A stretch of DNA of 64,000 nucleotides from an uncultured archaeon (GTDB lineage Archaea; Asgardarchaeota; Lokiarchaeia; Sigyniarchaeales; SOKP01), in assembly GCA_964598265.1 (NCBI GenBank), contig CAZRBD010000001.1, positions 1,590 to 65,589 of the forward strand, read 5' to 3'. Both the position numbers and the translations under genes were made by a program. Shown in pieces: positions 18,285 through 57,262 of this stretch; position 1 is the first letter of the stretch; each line of letters starts with the position of its first letter. The notes under the pieces are model-generated. The model searched no databases and was not told the origin of the DNA. It worked only from the letters and a program-made list of their open reading frames with translations.

Positions 18285-19037
18285 ATGATACATGATTTTT
18301 TAATTATTAGGGATGGTTTACCACTATTAGTAAAGAATTATTCTAACGTTCACCATCTTTTTTCTCAGGGGGATAATCTCCTTATGATCTCTGGTTTTTT
18401 CTCAGCCCTAAATTCATTTTCAGATTCTTTTGAAGATTTAGGAACAATTAGCGAATTAAAACTCTCTAATAATGATCTAAAACTTTCTTTTTTAAGGGAT
18501 ACAAATATACCAAGTTTAATCTATCTCGCAACTTTTGATGCCAAATCCAAACTATCAAATATCCAGAATCTCTTACAAATTATTGCCAAAAACTTCTTAA
18601 AAGAATTTAATATTAAACAGATTTTAAGTTGGAATGGTAAGGTCGATAATTTTAATTCATTCGATTCAATAATTAACCAATACATAGGATCAGAAAATAA
18701 AAAAATCATTGTTGATACACTTGTTAATAAAATTGAATTATCAGAAAATAAGTTAGATGAAACAGTTGATGTGAGAGAGACAAATGAGAATAATGCTGAA
18801 CAAGAAAAAGTGGAAGCAATTCCACATTATTATAAATTAATTCCCTATTTAACCTCATCAAAAAAGATTAATCCAAAACTCTTCTTAACGGGAGAATCAT
18901 CATGTGAAATCTATGATCAAGTAGATGGGACAAAATCTATAAATCAAATATCTCAAAAATTAGAATCAACTCAAGAACGAGTGTATAATATATGCAAGAA
19001 TTTGATTAAAATGGGATTTATTTCATTCTCAGACTAA
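18285..19037 (+). CDS. Longin/roadblock-like N-terminal domain protein with C-terminal winged-helix
   Basis: N-terminus 'MIHDFLIIRDGLPLLVKNY...ISGFFSALNSFSDSF'. C-terminus 'TKSINQISQKLESTQERVYNICKNLIKMGFISF' is wHTH-like. The domain call is by pattern only. Confidence 0.45.
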   Translation: MIHDFLIIRDGLPLLVKNYSNVHHLFSQGDNLLMISGFFSALNSFSDSFEDLGTISELKLSNNDLKLSFLRDTNIPSLIYLATFDAKSKLSNIQNLLQIIAKNFLKEFNIKQILSWNGKVDNFNSFDSIINQYIGSENKKIIVDTLVNKIELSENKLDETVDVRETNENNAEQEKVEAIPHYYKLIPYLTSSKKINPKLFLTGESSCEIYDQVDGTKSINQISQKLESTQERVYNICKNLIKMGFISFSD

Positions 19038-19292
19038 TATTCTTTTATTCCACTTTTTTAAGAGAATGTTTTTTACCACAAAAAGAGTTTTGTTATTATG
19101 TTCTAACTGATATCACATTTTTTGATAACACATAAGTTTTATTATGTCAAATTTATATTATATTGAGTAAATAATTTTAGTGGCAAGCGTTTTGGTGTAA
19201 AAAATGTTAATAACAGATCTATGTCTCGAAAATACCACTTCAATCGAGGTATTAATCGATGAGCTAAAAAATGCAACGAGAATGATATTTTT

Positions 19293-21392
19293 ATGGATAA
19301 AATAATGGCGATAAATCCTCCAATTGTAGATTTGAACTCAATGGAAGCATTAATTGATGAGTTAAAGAATGCTACTGGGATGAAACTTGATCATTACCAA
19401 AGAAATTTCTTAGAAAAGCGAATTAATTTCAGAATGGAGCATTTAGGTATTGAAAATTACATAGATTATATTAATCTTATCCATTCGAGTCCTGTAGAGC
19501 GAGATTTGTTCCTAGATAAATTTACTATAAACTATACCTATTTTTTTAGAAATCTTACAGTTTTTCAGAATTTTGAGAAATTTATCCAATTTTATGTTAG
19601 GAAATTAGAAAAATCTAAAAAAATCATAAGAATTTGGTCGGCACCTTGTGCCACAGGTGATGAACCTTACTCTTTAGCAATGATATTGGATAATATTAAA
19701 AAAAAAAAAAAGATTTTTCCAGACTTTAAAATCTATGCCTCTGATATTGATACAAATGCTATTAAATTAGCCGTTGATGGTGAATATGGAGAATATGCTG
19801 TACATGAATTACCCGAACATTATTTAACAACTTACTTTACAAAAACAATTACTGAACTAGGACCTAAATACAAGATCAATGATCAGATTAAAAATAAAGT
19901 AGAATTCATTCAAGAAGATATTTTAAAAGGCTCTCATGTAAGTCAAAAGTATGATGTCATATTTTGTAGGAATTTTTTTATATATATTAACCAAAATGCT
20001 CGGGATCTTTTCTTAAAAATTATCGAAAACAGACTATATAATGGTGGTTTATTATGCATTGGTGGATCAGAAACATTAGCTCGTAAATATCATCATTTTA
20101 CTAGTGTTAACTTAAAAGATAGGTTCTATATTAAAGGTTATTTTGATAAAAATGAATCTTATAGAAATGGGATTGCTAAACTCTTAGGAGCTAAGAGAAT
20201 TACTAAAAAACACTCACCTTCAAGAAAAATTAAAAAACTTCTTAAAACAGAAAAGACGCGTGAAAAACCAAAAAGAGAAACGAAATTAATTGATGATATC
20301 AAGGAAATATTTGAAAGAAAAGAAATCAAGGAGGAAGTCCATGACATTCAAGGCAAAGAAAGAACGGAAGTTAAATTCACTAAAATTGTAGTAAATAATG
20401 GAACATTAGACGATAATATAAAACACACAACAGAGCCTTTAATAGTACCTACAGAAGAAGGGAAAACTTTATCATTAGAACATAGAGGAAAATCGTTAAA
20501 ACGTAGGGAATTATTACTACAGCAAAAAGAATTACATCTCGATGAGAAAATTAAATACATCGTTACTCAATCAAAATTCTTAGAAGGAGAAAGAGAGAAA
20601 ATTGATGAGCTCTCAGAAATTTTAAATAAAAAAGAAGAGGAAATAATTAACCGTACATTAGTTTTAGAACGTATTACAAGACAAACGGAACTAAAAGAAA
20701 GAAATGTGGCTCAAAGAGAGACTCAACTTGAAAAACGATTAAATTTAATAGAACAATACTCTAGACAAATGGTCGAACAAGAAAGACGTTTTTCTAATGA
20801 TTCTCGTAAATTTGCAGAGAATAATTCTAACGAAGATGAAATTAACTCCTTTGAGGAAAAAAGGATAGATCGAATTAAAACTCCGAACGAAAAAAACGAA
20901 TTAAATATTCCAAAAGGGTACTACAGCCTTATTAATTCCTTTGATAAAAATGAAAGATCTACTAAATTGACAATAAATGGATTAGGTTCGGGAATTGCCT
21001 TAGTTTTTAAAGATGCAATTAATAATATATTTGCCATGTCTCATATAACATTACCATCCTCAAGAGCTTCCAAACAGGGATATCATCTACTCTTTCCACA
21101 TACATTTGTAGATACATCAGTTCAAGATTTATATAATAACGTAATTTACAATGGAGGAAATAGGTCTAGTATCAAAGCTTTCATAGTTGGTGGTGCAAAA
21201 CTATTTTTAGACTATGATATGACTTATCAGGAGAATATTGATGCTATAAGAGAAGAATTAGCAGTACTTCAAATTGAGATTGAAGGCGAAGATATTGGAG
21301 GTTTAAGTGAAAGATCAATCAAATATGATACTATAAATGACGTTTTTTATGTAAAAAAAACCTGGGAATTTGAATATAGAAAAATAAAATAA
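19293..21392 (+). CDS. Fusion protein: CheR-type SAM methyltransferase, ~300-aa charged coiled coil, CheD-like domain
   Basis: CheR motifs 'IRIWSAPCATGDEPYSLAMIL' and 'IFCRNFFIYI'. CheD-like tail 'INGLGSGIALVF..IFAMSHITLP..AFIVGGAKLF..IEGEDIGGLSERS'. Confidence 0.7.
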   Translation: MDKIMAINPPIVDLNSMEALIDELKNATGMKLDHYQRNFLEKRINFRMEHLGIENYIDYINLIHSSPVERDLFLDKFTINYTYFFRNLTVFQNFEKFIQFYVRKLEKSKKIIRIWSAPCATGDEPYSLAMILDNIKKKKKIFPDFKIYASDIDTNAIKLAVDGEYGEYAVHELPEHYLTTYFTKTITELGPKYKINDQIKNKVEFIQEDILKGSHVSQKYDVIFCRNFFIYINQNARDLFLKIIENRLYNGGLLCIGGSETLARKYHHFTSVNLKDRFYIKGYFDKNESYRNGIAKLLGAKRITKKHSPSRKIKKLLKTEKTREKPKRETKLIDDIKEIFERKEIKEEVHDIQGKERTEVKFTKIVVNNGTLDDNIKHTTEPLIVPTEEGKTLSLEHRGKSLKRRELLLQQKELHLDEKIKYIVTQSKFLEGEREKIDELSEILNKKEEEIINRTLVLERITRQTELKERNVAQRETQLEKRLNLIEQYSRQMVEQERRFSNDSRKFAENNSNEDEINSFEEKRIDRIKTPNEKNELNIPKGYYSLINSFDKNERSTKLTINGLGSGIALVFKDAINNIFAMSHITLPSSRASKQGYHLLFPHTFVDTSVQDLYNNVIYNGGNRSSIKAFIVGGAKLFLDYDMTYQENIDAIREELAVLQIEIEGEDIGGLSERSIKYDTINDVFYVKKTWEFEYRKIK

Positions 21393-22400: not shown

Positions 22401-22706
22401 TTATTTTAATTTTCTCTTTTGTTGGAGTTTTTTTCTTCTATGCTCAGAATCTTGAATTTTTTCTTCTAAATCCTGCAATTCCTTCTCATTTTTGCCTACA
22501 AATTTGAATTGCCCGTAAATTTTGCTTTCTTCTTTTTCTCCAGTTTTTGAGATCTTTTCAAATGATAATTTAATAGATGCGTCTTGATTTAATGCTAAGT
22601 TTATGAAATTTATAAAACCAATATGTTTTCTTGGTGCAATATTGAATTTTATAATCACTTCTTTTTTTTTATTGGTCGTTGTTTTTAGAATTAAACGCAA
22701 TTTCAA
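22401..22706 (-). CDS. Hypothetical small basic protein
   Basis: 101-aa ORF with no motif. Confidence 0.4.
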   Translation of the reverse strand: MKLRLILKTTTNKKKEVIIKFNIAPRKHIGFINFINLALNQDASIKLSFEKISKTGEKEESKIYGQFKFVGKNEKELQDLEEKIQDSEHRRKKLQQKRKLK

Positions 22707-46931: not shown

Positions 46932-48419
46932 ATGGTTAGTTTAAAATGGGATGGGAAAATAGGGAGAACAGAAGTTTTTTCAAAGGGTGAAAAAACATTA
47001 AATTTCCGAGTTCTTGATAACTATACTAATATTAAGTCTAGTTTTAATAGTTTGAAGGATTGGAAAAATCTCTTATTCTGGGGAGAAAATAATACACTCA
47101 TGAATTTTCTTATAGAAAATTATGAAAATAAAATAACTATGATTTATATTGATCCTCCATTCGCAACAGGAGGAGAGTTTAAATTAAAAATCCTAATAGG
47201 GAATCTTGGCAAAAAAATTGAAGATCTCGCTTATAATGATAATTGGAAAGAAGGCTTACATTCATATTTCAATTTTATATACGAACGACTAATTCTTATG
47301 AAAAATTTGTTGAATGATAAAGGTTCTATCTATATACATTTAGATTGGCACATTTCACATTATATAAAACTTTTAATGGATGAAATTTTCGGTTATGAAA
47401 ATTTTCGAAATGAAATAATATGGGCTTACCCAGCAGCTTCAGCTAAAACTCGAAGATTTTTTATAAGATCTTATGATACTATTTTATTTTATTCAAAATC
47501 AGACAATTATATTTTTAATGATAACCCGAAAATTTATATGGAATATTCTAACCGCGTAAAGAATGCATTAAAAAGAGATGATAAGGGAATCTTTTATTAT
47601 CGAGGTGGTAGTCATAACGGTAAAAAGTTGTCAAGAAAAGTTTATGTCGAAAAGGAAGGTATTTTTCCTAGAGATGTGTGGAATGATATTCCATACATCA
47701 GAGCTAATACTAAGGAATACCAAGGTTTTTCTACTCAAAAGCCTGAAAGACTTTTAAAAAGAATTATCTTAGCCTCCACAAATGAGAACGATCTTATCGC
47801 TGATTTTTTCTGTGGCTCAGGAACTACTTTAGTCGTAGCGGAAAAACTAGGTAGACGGTGGATAGGCTGTGATTTGAACAAACTCGCTATTCATATGACA
47901 AGAAAAAGACTACTGAACATCAGTAAAAGTAATAATATTTTAAATTGGTCAGAATTATATAATAAGACACCTCAATCTTTTCAAATCATACAATTGGGCA
48001 ACAAAGACAACTCGGAGATAATAAATAAAAAATTTTTATTAGAAAATGTTGAAAATAATAGAATTAGAAATAAAATTAAAACCACCAATTTAAAACTATT
48101 TATTCATCAATATGATCATGAAATAGAAGTGGAAATAATCGATTATAAGTTGTCATTTAACCATCTTTTATCTGAATATGTAAGAGAAAAAATAGATTCA
48201 TTTGCAGACTGGATCGATTATTGGGCCATAGACTATAATTATGATGGTAAAATTTTTAACAATATGTGGACATCATTTAGAACTCCAAAGAAAAGAGAAA
48301 TAGCTTTAAAATCTACTCCTTATCTTTATAAAAAAAAAGGTAATTTCAACCTTTCTGTAAAATCAATAGATATTTTTGGAATTGAAACCGTAAAATCGTT
48401 TGATGTTGAGATCATTTAA
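46932..48419 (+). CDS. N6-adenine/N4-cytosine DNA methyltransferase (beta-class order, DPPF before FxGxG) with ~170-aa C-terminal extension
   Basis: 'IYIDPPFATGGEF' (motif IV) and 'DFFCGSGTT' (motif I). Confidence 0.85.
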   Translation: MVSLKWDGKIGRTEVFSKGEKTLNFRVLDNYTNIKSSFNSLKDWKNLLFWGENNTLMNFLIENYENKITMIYIDPPFATGGEFKLKILIGNLGKKIEDLAYNDNWKEGLHSYFNFIYERLILMKNLLNDKGSIYIHLDWHISHYIKLLMDEIFGYENFRNEIIWAYPAASAKTRRFFIRSYDTILFYSKSDNYIFNDNPKIYMEYSNRVKNALKRDDKGIFYYRGGSHNGKKLSRKVYVEKEGIFPRDVWNDIPYIRANTKEYQGFSTQKPERLLKRIILASTNENDLIADFFCGSGTTLVVAEKLGRRWIGCDLNKLAIHMTRKRLLNISKSNNILNWSELYNKTPQSFQIIQLGNKDNSEIINKKFLLENVENNRIRNKIKTTNLKLFIHQYDHEIEVEIIDYKLSFNHLLSEYVREKIDSFADWIDYWAIDYNYDGKIFNNMWTSFRTPKKREIALKSTPYLYKKKGNFNLSVKSIDIFGIETVKSFDVEII

Positions 48420-50909: not shown

Positions 50910-51830
50910 TTACACATCCAATGAAAAGTATTCACCTATCTCTTCCTCAATTTTTGAAATATCATTAATAACCTGTTTGAATTCTTCTCTAGGAATTTTT
51001 TTTCGATTGAGCAAAGTCTTTGCATATGTTTTATATTTTTCAACAATATGGGATTCAGCAAAATTATTTAGTTTTAGGCAAAATGAATATAGATATGAAT
51101 ATGTTTCTGCGTATTTCGAAAATTCTAATGATTCAATTACTTTATTTAAATAATATTTTAATCTCAGTTTCCGATCTTTGATCTCATCTTTTAGAGATTT
51201 TGATTCTGTTTGGTATTCAATAAATTTTTCATCGTCTCGAAGCTTCTCTGAGATTTCTATTAATTTCTTTGACATTTCGTATTTTTTAAGAAAATTTTCT
51301 TCTGTCAGATACCGAAAATTAAGGTCCTCTCTTTTTTTTGATAAATCTCCTCTAATTTGCTCTGATAAAGAACCTTTTTGATCCCATATTGACTTTAATA
51401 TAACACTCTGATCCGCTGTTAATGATGATTCACCAGATAATTGCCTTTCCGAAAGAACTAATTGTATTATTTTTAAGTCAAACATTTCAAGTTTTTCTGG
51501 TGTATGATCCCAATTATTAAACAATTCCTCATGGGTTTGAATGATATCTTGGATTTTTGGAATAATCTTTTTGACTTCTTTTATGTCTGCTTTTGCTGTA
51601 ATGATTACTAAATCAGATGATATCTCAGGTATACGTGTTATTAAAACAAAATATTCTCCTAATTCTATTGTATTCAAAGATTCTGAACTGTTTTCTGTTA
51701 ACTCTGATACGAAGGTTTGCAATGCAGAAAAAAAAGAGCTAAACATTTGTAGTTTTTCGTCGCTTTGGAAGTTCTTATTATAAATTAACTCTTTAGTATT
51801 GCTTTGGAAAAGGTAGAGTGATTGTATCAT
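50910..51830 (-). CDS. Longin/roadblock-like N-terminal domain protein with coiled-coil tail (distant paralog of 18285..19037)
   Basis: 'MIQSLYLFQSNTKELIYNKNF...MFSSFFSALQTFVSEL' parallels 'MIHDFLIIRDGLPLLVKNY...ISGFFSALNSFSDSF'. Confidence 0.45.
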   Translation of the reverse strand: MIQSLYLFQSNTKELIYNKNFQSDEKLQMFSSFFSALQTFVSELTENSSESLNTIELGEYFVLITRIPEISSDLVIITAKADIKEVKKIIPKIQDIIQTHEELFNNWDHTPEKLEMFDLKIIQLVLSERQLSGESSLTADQSVILKSIWDQKGSLSEQIRGDLSKKREDLNFRYLTEENFLKKYEMSKKLIEISEKLRDDEKFIEYQTESKSLKDEIKDRKLRLKYYLNKVIESLEFSKYAETYSYLYSFCLKLNNFAESHIVEKYKTYAKTLLNRKKIPREEFKQVINDISKIEEEIGEYFSLDV

Positions 51831-52633: not shown

Positions 52634-53029
52634 TTACCAAGTTTCTACTTGCACTTTATGAACTTTTTCATAGTGTTTAATGTTTCGTGTTATTAATTTA
52701 ATATCCTTTTCAATAGCGATCGAAGCAATAAAAATATCTAATTCATTAATTAATTCCTCCTTTCTTTTTAGGCTTGCTCTAATTTCACCATAAATCTTCC
52801 CGTCAATAATATCAAAGGGATATATTACCAACTTAGACAGTAATTTATTAACTGCATTTATATTTTCTTCTTTACTTTCCGAGAGATATGCTCCAAAATA
52901 TAATTCAGCAACATTAATGGAAGATGTTGACAATAACTGATAGCTTTCAAGTAGTCTAGAAATTTCCTTCTTCGCATCCTCGTCATTTCTTAAGAATTGT
53001 ATAAGAATATCTGTATCTAAAAGAACCAT
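52634..53029 (-). CDS. vapC: PIN-domain toxin VapC
   Basis: 'MVLLDTDILIQFL' first acidic motif and a later 'D' in 'ELDIFIASIA..ITRN'. Size 131 aa. Confidence 0.75.
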   Translation of the reverse strand: MVLLDTDILIQFLRNDEDAKKEISRLLESYQLLSTSSINVAELYFGAYLSESKEENINAVNKLLSKLVIYPFDIIDGKIYGEIRASLKRKEELINELDIFIASIAIEKDIKLITRNIKHYEKVHKVQVETW

Positions 53030-56539: not shown

Positions 56540-57262
56540 ATGGTTAAGAGTGAAAAAGCTCCCTCTGGTTACATTTATCGAGCAAATAATATTCATAATG
56601 GGAAAAATTACTTAGGAAAAACTGGAAAGACAATAGAAGAAAGATGGAGTGAGCATTTAGATGATGGTAGGGCATTAAAGCGAGAACGAGAAGCTAATCT
56701 TGATAAAAAAATATATGGTACTCATCTCGATAACGCTCTAGCTAAATATGGTCCTGATGCATTTATTGTGACACAGGAAGACGTTGCTTATAGTGAGGCA
56801 GAGTTGAAAGAAAAGGAAAGATATTATGTTAAGGAATATGATTCGATGAATCCAGATAAAGGGTATAATATGACGGAAGGTGGGGAAGGAGGTAGAATGA
56901 GGCTTGAAGTAATCGAAAAAATAAGAAAAATTTCGATAGAGAAGGCAAAAGATCCAATATGGCTGGAAAAAGTAAGCAAGGGAGTTTCAGACAAATATCA
57001 AAACGATCCTGAATATCAAGAAAAACAAGCTAAAGAAAGGAGAGAAAGGGGTGACGATCCGAAATTTCGAGAAAAAATGAGAGATGTAAATCGGCGATAT
57101 AAAAAAGAAATTAAGGATAAAAAAGAATTTCTAGAAGATATCCAGAGGAGGATGAGCAAAGAGATTGCTAAAAAGTATGGTATGAATAGATCAATCGTAA
57201 ATAAAACGATACAGGAATTTTTTAAAAACAATTTTAAAAACTCAAATGATAATTCACCATAG
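56540..57262 (+). CDS. Free-standing GIY-YIG nuclease-domain protein (homing-endonuclease-like) with basic helical C-terminus
   Basis: 'GYIYRANNIHNGKNYLGKT..EERWSEH' (GIY-x-YIG-R) and 'YNMTEGGEGG'. Confidence 0.65.
   Translation: MVKSEKAPSGYIYRANNIHNGKNYLGKTGKTIEERWSEHLDDGRALKREREANLDKKIYGTHLDNALAKYGPDAFIVTQEDVAYSEAELKEKERYYVKEYDSMNPDKGYNMTEGGEGGRMRLEVIEKIRKISIEKAKDPIWLEKVSKGVSDKYQNDPEYQEKQAKERRERGDDPKFREKMRDVNRRYKKEIKDKKEFLEDIQRRMSKEIAKKYGMNRSIVNKTIQEFFKNNFKNSNDNSP

What the first reader, a model, noticed from the sequence alone, without database searches (positions are those of the whole stretch)
19293..21392. Orphan CheR / coiled-coil / CheD-like fusion with Gly at the CheD catalytic Cys position
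The N-terminal 280 aa form a clear CheR methyltransferase. The C-terminal ~150 aa align to CheD ('GLGSGIALVF', 'MSHITLP', 'VGGAKLF', 'GEDIGG..R'). As I recall, CheD deamidases use the Cys in 'GLGSC', and here it is Gly, while the His of 'HxxLP' is kept. The two modules are joined by ~300 aa of Lys/Glu-rich heptad-like sequence. No CheA, CheW, CheY, MCP or archaellum genes lie in the 64 kb. A methyltransferase tethered to a probably non-catalytic receptor-binding module could be a repurposed protein-modification system.
Basis: partly seen in the sequence, partly recalled or inferred. Interest (0 to 1): 0.65.

Follow-up and report, generated by a model that had tools for sequence, protein, structure and literature searches.

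The report
Asgard CheR fused to dead CheD
This gene encodes a protein methyltransferase of the chemotaxis (CheR) type permanently joined, through a long coiled coil, to a catalytically disabled copy of the chemotaxis enzyme CheD; it belongs to a conserved, unstudied family of Asgard archaea that has left the chemotaxis gene cluster and always sits beside a eukaryote-like longin-domain gene.

Summary
ORF 19293-21392 (699 aa) is CheR_N+CheR (163 bits), then an 88-aa disordered basic stretch, a 112-aa coiled coil, and a complete CheD fold (TM 0.88 to T. maritima CheD). Gly567 sits at the catalytic Cys position and His584 is kept. No che, MCP or archaellum domain was found in the 64 kb.

It is not an oddity of one gene. 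About 108 protein clusters and 36 species-level Asgard genomes carry it. Cys is replaced in 109 of 110 members (Gly 85, Ser 18). The CheR motifs are invariant, and the CheD-like domain is the best conserved part.

In 35 of 38 loci it lies directly downstream of a longin + winged-helix gene, in a housekeeping neighbourhood.

A sister subfamily with the same build (Thr/Ser at the Cys site) sits next to CheB, in one case beside MCP, CheW, CheY and CheA. The architecture therefore arose inside Asgard chemotaxis, and the window's subfamily is a paralog that moved out. One MAG has both this fusion and a che cluster with a stand-alone Cys-bearing CheD.

Most likely it is an active, dimeric CheR that docks through a dead CheD domain. 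Whether it still methylates chemoreceptors or a new target is unresolved. New variant of a known kind; moderately interesting.

The parts
18285..19037 (+). Partner gene: 250-aa longin-domain + C-terminal winged-helix protein, no Pfam hit
   Evidence: Immediately upstream on the same strand in 35 of 38 genome loci and in L001-L007, at 39-58% identity. The AlphaFold model (pLDDT 70) shows a bb-a-bb-a domain plus a winged helix. Foldseek hits: TRAPP Bet5/Trs23, Sec22b, VAMP7 and AP sigma longin domains (TM 0.6-0.72), and full-length GATOR1 Nprl2/3. Some homologs carry a precomputed TrmB (PF01978) hit.
19160..19207 (+). Conserved 5' element (…GAGTAAA.AAT…GCAAGCGTTTTGGTGTAAAAAATG) holding the ancestral translation start site
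   Evidence: About 82% identical to the same block in loci whose proteins are only about 51% identical. The core TTTGGTGTAAAAAAT is exact in 11 loci and occurs once exactly in the window.
19204..19305 (+). 33-codon upstream ORF (MLITDLCLENTTSIEVLIDELKNATRMIFLWIK*): the ancestral N-terminus, cut off by a 98-nt tandem duplication. Its stop overlaps Met5 of the main ORF as TAATG.
   Evidence: The 82%-identical relative L050 has one uninterrupted copy.
19293..21392 (+). Whole fusion ORF, 699 aa (CheR - disordered segment - coiled coil - CheD-like)
19341..20186 (+). CheR methyltransferase module (residues 17-298: helical N-domain + SAM-binding domain), predicted active
   Evidence: Pfam 163.5 and 37.9 bits. 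Foldseek 5FTW TM 0.83. Family-invariant W115 S116 P118 A120 G122 E124, S150 D151 D153, C225 R226 N227 Y231; R86 nearly invariant.
20208..20471 (+). Disordered Lys/Glu/Thr-rich segment (residues 306-393)
   Evidence: pLDDT 30-35 with no secondary structure. Least conserved part, top-residue frequency 0.34.
20475..20810 (+). Coiled coil: one 112-residue helix (residues 395-506)
   Evidence: pLDDT 85-90. Hydrophobic periodicity power 1.40 at 3.5 residues against 0.16 or less at nearby non-heptad periods, in a single register. No MCP-type methylation motif.
20898..21389 (+). CheD-like domain (residues 536-699), full CheD fold lacking the Cys nucleophile
   Evidence: Pfam CheD 50.7-53.1 bits. 2F9Z_C TM 0.88, rmsd 2.3 A. 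Most conserved part of the protein, 0.76.
20991..20993 (+). Codon of Gly567, at the position of the CheD catalytic Cys (T. maritima Cys27)
   Evidence: Family: Gly 85, Ser 18, Glu 3, Lys 2, Asp 1, Cys 1 of 110. Stand-alone CheDs: Cys in 101 of 112.
21042..21044 (+). Codon of His584, at the position of the CheD catalytic His (T. maritima His44)
   Evidence: Family: His 83, Asn 14, Tyr 10.
22401..22706 (-). Conserved 101-aa protein of the same syntenic block. No functional link to the fusion is shown.
   Evidence: Present downstream in 36 of 38 loci at 57-74% identity. Directly adjacent to the fusion where the GHMP kinase gene is absent. No Pfam hit.

Best explanation
The ORF encodes a member of an Asgard-archaeal family, here called subfamily A, of CheR-type SAM-dependent protein-glutamate methyltransferases. 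Behind a disordered basic segment and a 112-residue coiled coil, each member carries a complete CheD fold whose nucleophilic Cys is replaced by Gly.

The CheR half keeps every SAM-binding and catalytic motif and is most likely active. The CheD half cannot deamidate by the known Cys-His mechanism. It most likely acts as a built-in docking ('reader') module that holds the coiled-coil dimer on a Glu/Gln-bearing helical substrate so that CheR can methylate it.

The family is a paralog of fusions of the same build that sit beside CheB in Asgard che clusters (subfamily B). Subfamily A has left the che cluster. It is fixed in a housekeeping neighbourhood directly downstream of a longin + winged-helix gene. 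I judge it most likely to work with that partner as a che-derived two-gene module that does not need a CheA/CheW/CheY pathway.

Shown: domains, folds, residue states, family-wide conservation, synteny, and paralogy with che-cluster fusions.
Inferred: CheR activity, the docking role of the CheD-like domain, dimerisation, independence from chemotaxis, and the functional link to the partner.
For: Domains and folds.

Catalytic site:
- Cys is lost in 109 of 110 family members (mostly to Gly), and His is not invariant.
- By contrast, 101 of 112 stand-alone CheDs keep Cys.

Conservation:
- CheR motifs are invariant across 61 sequences.
- The CheD-like domain is the most conserved part (0.76 against 0.69 for CheR). 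It is therefore under selection for something other than Cys-based catalysis.
- The coiled coil has a clean heptad signal.

Genomic context:
- About 108 clusters and 36 syntenic species-level loci. None is in a che cluster.
- The longin + winged-helix gene is directly upstream in 35 of 38.
- No che genes in the window's 64 kb.

Ancestry:
- Subfamily B has the same architecture and lies next to CheB in three loci, with MCP, CheW, CheY and CheA in L047.
- A and B form one clade of long Cys-less fusions next to Asgard Cys-bearing CheDs and short Cys-bearing CheR-CheD fusions.
- The A and B CheD domains are only 26% identical, less than A against Cys-bearing Asgard CheDs (34-39%). This suggests a changed binding specificity.

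Distribution:
- Che gene sets are reported in only 27 of 97 Asgard MAGs (PMC9834061).
- A is kept alongside a canonical che cluster in MAG DZ3M.28, so it is not simply redundant with that cluster.

Partner link: a protein homologous to the partner's longin domain lies inside the L047 che cluster (hhalign probability 72%, E 3e-5; the only extra HMM hit among about 940 ORF segments).
Against: - No substrate has been identified and there are no biochemical data.
- The ancestry is chemotactic, and at least one genome has both subfamily A and a che cluster. MCPs therefore remain the simplest substrate.
- I could not survey the window's genome, or any A-bearing genome, for MCP or CheA.
- The genome scan returned no locus titled as a cultured Asgard species, so the family is not universal, and its correlation with che genes is unknown.
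- Cluster counts come from a word-index-limited search.
- The wide synteny consists of housekeeping genes, so adjacency to the longin gene could partly reflect slow genome rearrangement.
- In divergent members (L044/P0283 'RVGMV…ACYADIL'; L045 His to Trp) the former active-site motifs have decayed. This weakens the idea that the cleft is always the binding site.
- The longin homology to the che-cluster protein rests on a single sequence at moderate probability.
Confidence: 0.45

Rival explanations
1. Ordinary but unusually built accessory chemotaxis enzyme. The fusion methylates MCPs encoded elsewhere in the genome. The dead CheD domain tethers CheR to receptor arrays, a job done in E. coli by the receptor pentapeptide, and the coiled coil spans or dimerises on the array. 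Its housekeeping location is incidental.
For: - The sister subfamily B sits next to CheB in three loci, and in L047 beside MCP-CheW-CheY-CheA.
- MAG DZ3M.28 has both the fusion and a che cluster.
- The CheR domain is fully canonical.
- CheD is an established MCP- and CheC-binding protein (Chao et al. 2006, structure 2F9Z; from memory).
- Some Lokiarchaeia have 15 MCPs and putative chemoreceptor arrays (PMC9834061).
Against: - None of the 36 syntenic A loci lies in or beside che genes.
- No che gene lies in the window's 64 kb.
- A is sampled about 8-10 times more often than the che-cluster subfamily.
- Che sets are reported in only 27 of 97 Asgard MAGs.
- A coexists with a che cluster that has its own CheD in DZ3M.28.
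- The A and B CheD domains are only 26% identical.
- The invariant partner is a longin + winged-helix protein, not a Che protein.
Confidence: 0.35
2. The CheD-like domain is still an enzyme. It would be a deamidase or methylesterase using another nucleophile, such as Ser566 next to Gly567, the Ser found at the Cys position in 18 members, or the Thr/Ser of subfamily B. The protein would then be a bifunctional writer/eraser.
For: - His584 is kept in the window and in 83 of 110 members.
- The former active-site motifs (GLGSG, MSHISLP, PHTFxDTS, GGAKLF) are the best conserved stretches.
- Ser or Thr at the Cys position in minorities of A and in B could in principle act as nucleophiles.
Against: - The commonest residue at the nucleophile position is Gly, which has no side chain (85 of 110); Glu, Lys and Asp also occur.
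- His is replaced by Asn or Tyr in 24 of 110.
- Mutating the Cys abolishes activity in characterised CheDs (established knowledge, from memory).
- Scores fall far below every NCBIfam CheD equivalog cutoff (73 against 240 bits).
Confidence: 0.08
3. A decaying relic: a che gene left behind after loss of chemotaxis, with no current function.
For: The catalytic Cys is lost. The window copy has a disrupted 5' end (98-nt duplication with a uORF). A few divergent members have degenerate motifs.
Against: - The ORF is intact at 600-740 aa in about 108 clusters, with invariant CheR motifs and a CheD-like domain at 76% column conservation across members 27-82% identical.
- Synteny is conserved across 36 species-level genomes.
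- Differences between the two copies of the LIDELKNAT segment in the window are all synonymous.
Confidence: 0.02

Closest known systems
CheR protein-glutamate O-methyltransferase (S. typhimurium 1AF7/1BC5, B. subtilis 5FTW)
   Same: Two-domain CheR fold (TM 0.83 to 5FTW). All SAM-binding and catalytic motifs are present. Pfam CheR_N + CheR score well above their cutoffs.
   Different: Carries a 400-residue C-terminal extension (disordered segment, coiled coil, CheD fold). Not encoded with che genes. Far below the NCBIfam CheR equivalog cutoff (119 against 435 bits). Substrate unknown.
CheD chemoreceptor glutamine deamidase / CheC activator (T. maritima 2F9Z chain C)
   Same: Same fold (TM 0.88, rmsd 2.3 A, 26% identity). 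Pfam CheD above its cutoff. His of the catalytic pair retained in the window.
   Different: The Cys nucleophile is replaced by Gly across the family. It is a domain of a larger protein, not a stand-alone protein of 160-200 aa. No CheC partner nearby. Below all CheD equivalog cutoffs.
Asgard che-cluster CheR-linker-CheD-like fusions ('subfamily B', e.g. P0309 = TXT67587.1, P0298, P0303)
   Same: Same architecture and size (684-743 aa: CheR_N, CheR, long charged/coiled-coil linker, Cys-less CheD domain). Asgard labels. Sister clade in a crude NJ tree.
   Different: B has Thr/Ser ('GSTYV') rather than Gly at the Cys site. B lies next to CheB, and in L047 beside MCP-CheW-CheY-CheA. A lies in a housekeeping locus behind a longin + winged-helix gene. 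The two CheD domains are only 26% identical.
Short CheR-CheD fusions with intact catalytic Cys (Lokiarchaeota P0260 = MBN1802962.1, P0256; bacterial-type P0109)
   Same: CheR followed by CheD in one polypeptide. The Asgard ones are 39-42% identical to the window's CheD domain.
   Different: They keep 'GSCIA…MSHILLP' (Cys and His), have short linkers with no long coiled coil, and are 403-528 aa. They are probably bifunctional enzymes and plausible evolutionary precursors.
CheR enzymes with appended targeting modules (CheR-TPR of the FrzF/WspC type; pentapeptide-tethered E. coli CheR; P. aeruginosa CheR1-MapZ, 5XLY/5Y4R)
   Same: The principle of a CheR catalytic core directed or regulated by an extra binding element. 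CheR-TPR proteins appear among the distant hits, and CheR1-MapZ structures among the PDB hits.
   Different: Here the appended module is a dead enzyme of the same pathway (CheD), joined by a coiled coil. I found no description of this in the searchable literature.
Longin-domain regulators (TRAPP Bet5/Trs23, Sec22b/VAMP7 longin, AP sigma, GATOR1 Nprl2/Nprl3), for the partner gene
   Same: The partner's N-terminal domain has a longin fold (TM 0.6-0.72). Longin followed by a C-terminal winged helix resembles the Nprl2/3 layout, which gives the top full-length Foldseek hits.
   Different: No sequence-level family hit. The full-length superpositions are poor (rmsd about 20 A, TM about 0.27). Model confidence is moderate (pLDDT 70). 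No small-GTPase gene is adjacent.

Membership tests
CheR methyltransferase (PF01739/PF03705) | Pfam CheR and CheR_N domains above gathering score | tested here: met
   163.5 bits (cutoff 27) and 37.9 bits (cutoff 27)
CheR methyltransferase (PF01739/PF03705) | Two-domain CheR fold | tested here: met
   Foldseek 5FTW E 2.8e-19, TM 0.83; 1AF7/1BC5 TM about 0.7
CheR methyltransferase (PF01739/PF03705) | SAM-binding and catalytic motifs conserved (WSAxCxxGxEPYS, xDID, CRNxxIY, FFR) | tested here: met
   IWSAPCATGDEPYS, ASDID, FCRNFFIY and YFFRN are present. W115 S116 P118 A120 G122 E124 D151 D153 R226 N227 Y231 are invariant in 61 sequences.
CheR methyltransferase (PF01739/PF03705) | Equivalog-level match to characterised CheR (NCBIfam NF007902) | tested here: not met
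   119 bits against a cutoff of 435
CheR methyltransferase (PF01739/PF03705) | Encoded with, or acting on, MCP/che pathway components | tested here: not met
   No che/MCP domain in the 64 kb or in 36 syntenic loci. Action on MCPs elsewhere in the genome cannot be tested here.
CheR methyltransferase (PF01739/PF03705) | Glutamate O-methyltransferase activity | not testable with these tools
   Needs a biochemical assay
CheD deamidase (PF03975) | Pfam CheD domain above gathering score | tested here: met
   50.7 bits in the whole protein and 53.1 bits for the isolated domain, against a cutoff of 25
CheD deamidase (PF03975) | CheD fold | tested here: met
   2F9Z_C TM 0.88, rmsd 2.3 A, 164 columns; domain pLDDT about 90
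CheD deamidase (PF03975) | Catalytic Cys nucleophile (T. maritima Cys27) | tested here: not met
   Gly567 in the window. The family has Gly 85, Ser 18 and Cys 1 of 110. Stand-alone CheDs keep Cys in 101 of 112.
CheD deamidase (PF03975) | Catalytic His (T. maritima His44) | tested here: met
   His584 in the window; variable in the family (His 83, Asn 14, Tyr 10)
CheD deamidase (PF03975) | Equivalog-level match to CheD (NCBIfam NF041119, NF010018 and others) | tested here: not met
   Best score 73-76 bits against cutoffs of 240-251
CheD deamidase (PF03975) | Stand-alone protein of about 160-200 aa in a che operon, typically beside CheC | tested here: not met
   It is the C-terminal domain of a 699-aa protein, with no CheC in the window. 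Contrast L043, where a 182-aa Cys-bearing CheD lies between CheB and CheC.
Asgard che-cluster CheR-CheD-like fusions (subfamily B) | CheR_N-CheR-long linker-Cys-less CheD architecture | tested here: met
   Same domain order and size
Asgard che-cluster CheR-CheD-like fusions (subfamily B) | Adjacent to CheB or within a che cluster | tested here: not met
   B lies next to CheB in L047, L048 and L049. The window and 36 A loci have no CheB.
Asgard che-cluster CheR-CheD-like fusions (subfamily B) | 'GSTYV/GSSYI…MSHVLFS' signature | tested here: not met
   The window has 'GSGIA…MSHITLP'. The A and B CheD domains are 26% identical.
Longin-domain proteins (partner gene 18285-19037) | Longin fold (b-b-a-b-b-a core) | tested here: met
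   Model elements E2-9, E12-18, H29-44, E66-71, E78-84, H90-107. Foldseek TM 0.6-0.72 to Sec22b, Bet5, VAMP7 and AP sigma. Model pLDDT is only 70.
Longin-domain proteins (partner gene 18285-19037) | Sequence-profile membership (Pfam longin/Sedlin/Sybindin and related) | tested here: not met
   No Pfam family at E<=0.01

The most novel reading that the evidence does not exclude
Subfamily A together with its longin + winged-helix partner is a new chemotaxis-derived signalling module of Asgard archaea. A dimeric CheR 'writer', guided by a dead-CheD 'reader', would reversibly methylate a non-receptor target, possibly the longin/winged-helix protein itself or a protein it recruits. This would couple a prokaryotic adaptation enzyme to a eukaryote-type longin regulatory platform with a layout like Nprl2/3 or TRAPP. 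The presence of a longin-like protein and of a Roadblock-Ras GTPase inside Asgard che clusters would then mark the ancestral connection.
Probability: 0.25. Interest if true: 0.8.

Novelty: new variant of a known kind. Interest (0 to 1): 0.6.

Why it matters

A conserved gene pair joining a chemotaxis-type methyltransferase to a longin + winged-helix protein would be an unexpected bridge between bacterial-style sensory adaptation chemistry and eukaryote-like regulatory modules. The dead-enzyme docking domain adds to this.

Even on the conservative reading it is informative. It would show a new way of tethering CheR to its substrate, by a pseudo-CheD domain on a coiled-coil arm, and it is a clear case of an enzyme becoming a binding domain within its own pathway.

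Public annotation pipelines currently label these proteins simply 'CheR family methyltransferase' or 'CheD'. That could inflate inferences of chemotaxis in Asgard genomes.

Tried and rejected
1. Self-methylation of the protein's own coiled coil at MCP-like sites. The helix has no [ASTG][ASTG]xx[EQ][EQ]xx[ASTG][ASTG] motif, no looser variant, and no conserved Glu/Gln pair. Rejected.
2. Thr21 to Ile as a second sign of inactivation. The closest Cys-bearing CheDs also have Ile or Val there. Rejected.
3. The 113-aa gene upstream of the subfamily-B fusion (L047), and the 185-aa gene in the L043 che cluster, as homologs of the longin partner. hhalign probability was below 1% for both. Rejected.
4. 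Window ORF 50910-51830 as a paralog of the partner's longin domain. hhalign probability was only 24%, with no HMM hit. Left open as weak.
5. The conserved 5' element as a known RNA family. Only a sub-threshold snoRNA match, E 0.32. Rejected.
6. Exact look-up of the window protein in public assemblies. Not on record. The nearest is P0001 (99%), called from Met5.
7. Same-genome co-occurrence of subfamily A (P0100) and B (P0309). Inconclusive.
8. Reading the L. ossiferum supplement for CheR/CheD fusions and chemotaxis tables. The held file is truncated. It shows only that a CheR orthogroup (no CheD Pfam) is present in L. ossiferum and absent in P. syntrophicum.
10. Literature searches for a described CheR-CheD Asgard fusion or a longin-chemotaxis link found nothing relevant.
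Full report
**1. Observation**

The ORF is real and lies exactly where stated: 19293..21392, + strand, 699 aa.
- Pfam finds CheR_N (17-67, 37.9 bits), CheR (80-275, 163.5 bits) and CheD (587-688, 50.7 bits), all above their gathering scores.
- NCBIfam hits CheR and nine CheD equivalog models, all far below their cutoffs: 119 against 435 bits for CheR, and 73 against 240 bits for the best CheD model.
- By sequence the closest solved structures are B. subtilis CheR 5FTW (E 2e-33) and T. maritima CheD 2F9Z chain C (E 7e-11).
- The CheD alignment reads INGLGSGIAL over TLGLGSCVAV and MSHITLP over MAHVMLP. Gly567 therefore occupies the catalytic Cys27 position, and His584 the His44 position.

**2. 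Structure**

An AlphaFold2 model built on 61 family sequences (mean pLDDT 74) divides the protein as follows:

| Residues | Element | Confidence |
|---|---|---|
| 17-298 | CheR | confident |
| 306-393 | disordered Lys/Glu/Thr-rich segment | pLDDT about 33 |
| 395-506 | one continuous helix | pLDDT 85-90 |
| 507-535 | short tether | low |
| 536-699 | alpha/beta domain | pLDDT about 90 |

- Foldseek against the PDB gives 5FTW at TM 0.83 for the first domain, and 2F9Z_C at TM 0.88, rmsd 2.3 A over 164 columns, for the last.
- The helix shows a sharp hydrophobic periodicity at 3.5 residues (power 1.40 against 0.16 or less at nearby non-heptad periods) in one register. It is a true coiled coil of about 16 heptads.

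**3. Surroundings in the window**

Pfam scans of every ORF of 100 aa or more found no CheA, CheW, response-regulator, MCP, CheB, CheC or archaellin domain in the 64 kb. The content is archaeal housekeeping with Asgard-typical extras:
- Glu-, Thr- and Asp-tRNA synthetases, thermosome, TruD, Pth2, PRPP synthetase and CTP-dependent riboflavin kinase.
- A Ras-family GTPase, a JAB protein and Alba.

G+C content is about 29%.

**4. A family, not a one-off**

- A homolog search returned about 108 clusters with the same CheR+CheD architecture at 32-99% identity. Every named one was labelled Promethearchaeota, Lokiarchaeota, Thor-, Hod-, Hermod- or Odinarchaeota.
- A scan of one genome per species found 38 loci, all in Asgard MAGs.
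- Across 110 sequences the Cys position is Gly 85, Ser 18, Glu 3, Lys 2, Asp 1, Cys 1. The His position is His 83, Asn 14, Tyr 10.
- The CheR motifs are invariant across 61 sequences: W115 S116 P118 A120 G122 E124, D151, D153, R226 N227 Y231.
- The CheD-like domain is the most conserved part of the protein: mean top-residue frequency 0.76, against 0.69 for CheR, 0.51 for the helix and 0.34 for the disordered segment.
- It has its own invariant residues: P602 H603, D607 T608, G633 G634, G669 G670, K689 W691 E692 R696.

A domain that has lost its nucleophile yet is the most constrained part of the protein is best read as a pseudo-enzyme kept for binding. That reading is an inference.

**5. How far from real CheD**

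An exhaustive search of 1.84 billion representatives with the CheD-like domain gave 872 hits. I classified the best 150.
- Proteins under 260 aa (stand-alone CheDs) have Cys at the catalytic position in 101 of 112 sequences with a residue there.
- Proteins of 400 aa or more have Gly 15, Thr 4, Ser 3, Cys 2, Lys 1, Asp 1.
- The closest Cys-bearing relatives (GSCIA…MSHILLP, 36-42% identical) carry Lokiarchaeota or Promethearchaeota labels.
- They also have Ile at the T. maritima Thr21 position, so Thr to Ile says nothing about activity.

**6. Conserved partner**

- In L001-L007 (members 32-55% identical) and in 35 of the 38 genome loci, a 235-251-aa gene lies directly upstream on the same strand (median gap about 160 bp). 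A 94-101-aa gene lies downstream on the opposite strand in 36 of 38.
- The wider block is also syntenic: NTP-transferase, GHMP kinase, CDP-alcohol transferase, RibK, a cytidylyltransferase, translin and ThrRS. Part of this conservation is therefore plain vertical inheritance.
- The upstream-gene/fusion adjacency nonetheless survives insertions and deletions around it, for example an SNF2 helicase in L004 and variable presence of the GHMP kinase gene.
- The upstream protein has no Pfam hit. Its model (pLDDT 70) is a bb-a-bb-a domain plus a C-terminal winged helix.
- Foldseek returns longin domains (Sec22b, VAMP7, TRAPP Bet5/Trs23, AP sigma; TM 0.6-0.72). The top full-length hits are GATOR1 Nprl2/Nprl3, though those superpose poorly.
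- Some homologs carry a TrmB-type HTH hit.

**7. Origin inside chemotaxis**

Three results tie the architecture to che systems.
- **Both in one MAG.** Locus L043, in the same MAG (DZ3M.28) as the syntenic fusion locus L031, is a che cluster. It contains a CheC-like gene, CheB, a stand-alone 182-aa CheD with the Cys (YGLGSCIALILFD), CheC, a Roadblock-Ras GTPase fusion, and a second CheB.
- **A che-cluster sister subfamily.** A second group of long proteins (P0298, P0303, P0309, P0292; 'GSTYV…MSHVLFS', Thr/Ser at the Cys site) has the same CheR_N-CheR-linker-CheD architecture. It lies next to CheB in all three loci examined. In L047 it also lies beside MCP, CheW, CheY and CheA.
- **Cys-bearing short fusions.** Shorter Lokiarchaeota CheR-CheD fusions keep the Cys (P0256, P0260). 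A bacterial-type one also exists (P0109).

In a crude NJ tree, A and B form a clade containing only long fusions and their fragments. That clade sits next to the Asgard Cys-bearing CheDs and the short fusions.

The simplest history runs: Asgard CheD, then a short catalytic CheR-CheD fusion, then a long Cys-less fusion with a coiled coil, then a split into a che-cluster form (B) and a relocated form (A, the window's).

**8. Is subfamily A still a chemotaxis enzyme?**

*Evidence for independence:*
- No A locus is in a che cluster.
- Published work finds che sets in only 27 of 97 Asgard MAGs, and none in 'Ca. P. syntrophicum' (PMC9834061).
- A is retained beside a canonical che cluster in DZ3M.28.
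- The A and B CheD domains are only 26% identical, less than A against Cys-bearing CheDs.
- The fixed partner is a longin + winged-helix protein.

*Evidence for a continuing chemotaxis role:*
- The ancestry is chemotactic.
- A and a che cluster co-occur in one MAG.
- The CheR core is fully canonical.
- No alternative substrate has been identified.

I could not survey any A-bearing genome for MCPs. The genome scan returned no locus titled as a cultured species. The held copy of the L. ossiferum tables is truncated.

I therefore rate 'che-derived module now working outside the che pathway' at 0.45 and 'accessory CheR for MCPs' at 0.35.

**9. A link between the partner and che clusters**

- The 271-aa protein encoded between the MCP and CheW genes in L047 aligns to the partner's longin domain over 123 columns (hhalign probability 72%, E 3.3e-5).
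- A longin HMM built from the partner family, run over 980 ORF segments from all loci and the window, hits the 40 orthologs, three truncated partner copies at contig ends, and only that one extra protein (E 1.2e-5).
- This suggests that a longin-type protein was already associated with the che-cluster fusion before subfamily A moved out. The evidence is one locus at moderate confidence.

**10. Mechanism proposed**

- Shown: an intact CheR core, a coiled coil, a CheD fold without the Cys, and strong constraint on that fold.
- Inferred: the coiled coil dimerises the protein.
- Inferred: the CheD-like domain binds a Glu/Gln-bearing helical surface. CheD does this on receptors and on CheC (established knowledge, structure 2F9Z).
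- Inferred: the flexible 90-residue segment lets the CheR domains reach nearby glutamates.
- This is a writer enzyme fused to a reader domain, playing the same role as the pentapeptide tether or the TPR extensions of other CheRs.
- I tested and rejected the idea that the protein's own coiled coil is the substrate.

**11. Side finding at the 5' end**

- Many loci share a conserved block, …TAGAGTAAAAAATCTTAATAGCAGGCGTTTTGGTGTAAAAAATTTCC….
- In at least ten of them, the frame encoding the conserved N-terminal peptide (KISVSSINPSSIDALIEELKxATGMKF) reads GTG TAA AAA ATT. There is no ATG, GTG or TTG after the TAA. This points to an AUU/AUA start, or to a start-stop followed by re-initiation.
- Gene callers consequently truncate many family members.
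- The window has ATG at that position (19204). A 98-nt tandem duplication, absent from the 82%-identical relative L050, has turned the ancestral N-terminus into a 33-codon uORF. Its stop overlaps Met5 of the main ORF as TAATG.

**12. Verdict**

- The object is a new variant of a known kind: a CheR with a built-in pseudo-CheD domain, part of a conserved Asgard gene pair with a longin + winged-helix protein.
- I found no description of it in the searchable literature. Public pipelines label these proteins 'CheR family methyltransferase' or 'CheD'.
- Interest 0.6.

Noticed in passing
window 19160-19207; L008 4382-4420, L012 4376-4415, L014 976-1015, L018 4385-4425, L033 5481-5520 and others: The 5' block of the fusion gene is conserved. 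In at least 10 loci the frame encoding the conserved N-terminal peptide reads GTG TAA AAA ATT/ATA, with no canonical start after the in-frame TAA. This suggests an AUU/AUA start, or a GUG-UAA start-stop followed by re-initiation. Gene callers therefore truncate many family members, which begin MKFDHYQ… or MEELK….
   Followed up: partly
window 19204-19305 (uORF) and 19293-19390: A window-specific 98-nt tandem duplication of the gene's 5' end. The ancestral start, ATG here, now opens a 33-codon uORF that re-encodes the N-terminus (…SIEVLIDELKNATRM…) and stops at a TAATG overlapping Met5 of the main ORF. Nucleotide differences between the two copies of the LIDELKNAT segment are all synonymous. 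The 82%-identical relative L050 lacks the duplication.
   Followed up: partly
L043 4327-5283 (+): A Roadblock/LC7 + Ras-family small GTPase fusion gene lies inside an Asgard che cluster, between CheC and a second CheB. This hints that the output or regulation of Asgard chemosensory systems may involve small GTPases.
   Followed up: partly
L047 15110-15925 (+): A 271-aa protein encoded between the MCP and CheW genes of an Asgard che cluster. Its C-terminal half is homologous to the longin domain of the window's partner protein (hhalign probability 72%, E 3e-5; the only extra HMM hit among about 940 ORF segments).
   Followed up: partly
window 22401-22706 (-): A 101-aa Lys-rich protein with no Pfam hit is more conserved (57-74% identity) than the fusion itself. 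It follows the fusion in 36 of 38 loci. Its function is unknown.
   Followed up: no
L047 5595-7217; L048 5407-6975; L049 8319-9914: The CheB proteins next to subfamily-B fusions are unusually long (522-540 aa). In L047 a low-complexity Lys/Ser/Glu-rich insert of about 150-190 aa lies between the receiver and methylesterase domains, echoing the disordered linker of the fusions.
   Followed up: no
L047 10431-11237; L048 12210-13001: An LCIB_C_CA (carbonic-anhydrase-like) gene lies directly downstream of the subfamily-B fusion in two independent loci.
   Followed up: no
L046 2835-4244: A short (469-aa) Lokiarchaeota CheR-CheD fusion with intact Cys and His lies outside any che cluster, between lipase-like genes and a TFIIB gene. 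It is a possible intermediate between stand-alone CheD and the long Cys-less fusions.
   Followed up: partly
L045 294-2216: A divergent 640-aa member (Bin_204) lies outside the usual synteny, next to genes that by sequence resemble leuC/leuD (no domain search was run on them). It has Gly at the Cys site and Trp at the His site, so the former active site is decaying further.
   Followed up: partly
L047 1-1631 (-): The A-type ATPase catalytic subunit gene carries an intein (Intein_splicing + LAGLIDADG hits).
   Followed up: no
window 46932-48419 (+), 52634-53029 (-), 56540-57262 (+): An N6/N4 DNA methylase, a PIN-domain protein and a GIY-YIG protein are scattered among housekeeping genes. They may be remnants of restriction-modification, toxin or mobile elements.
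   Followed up: no
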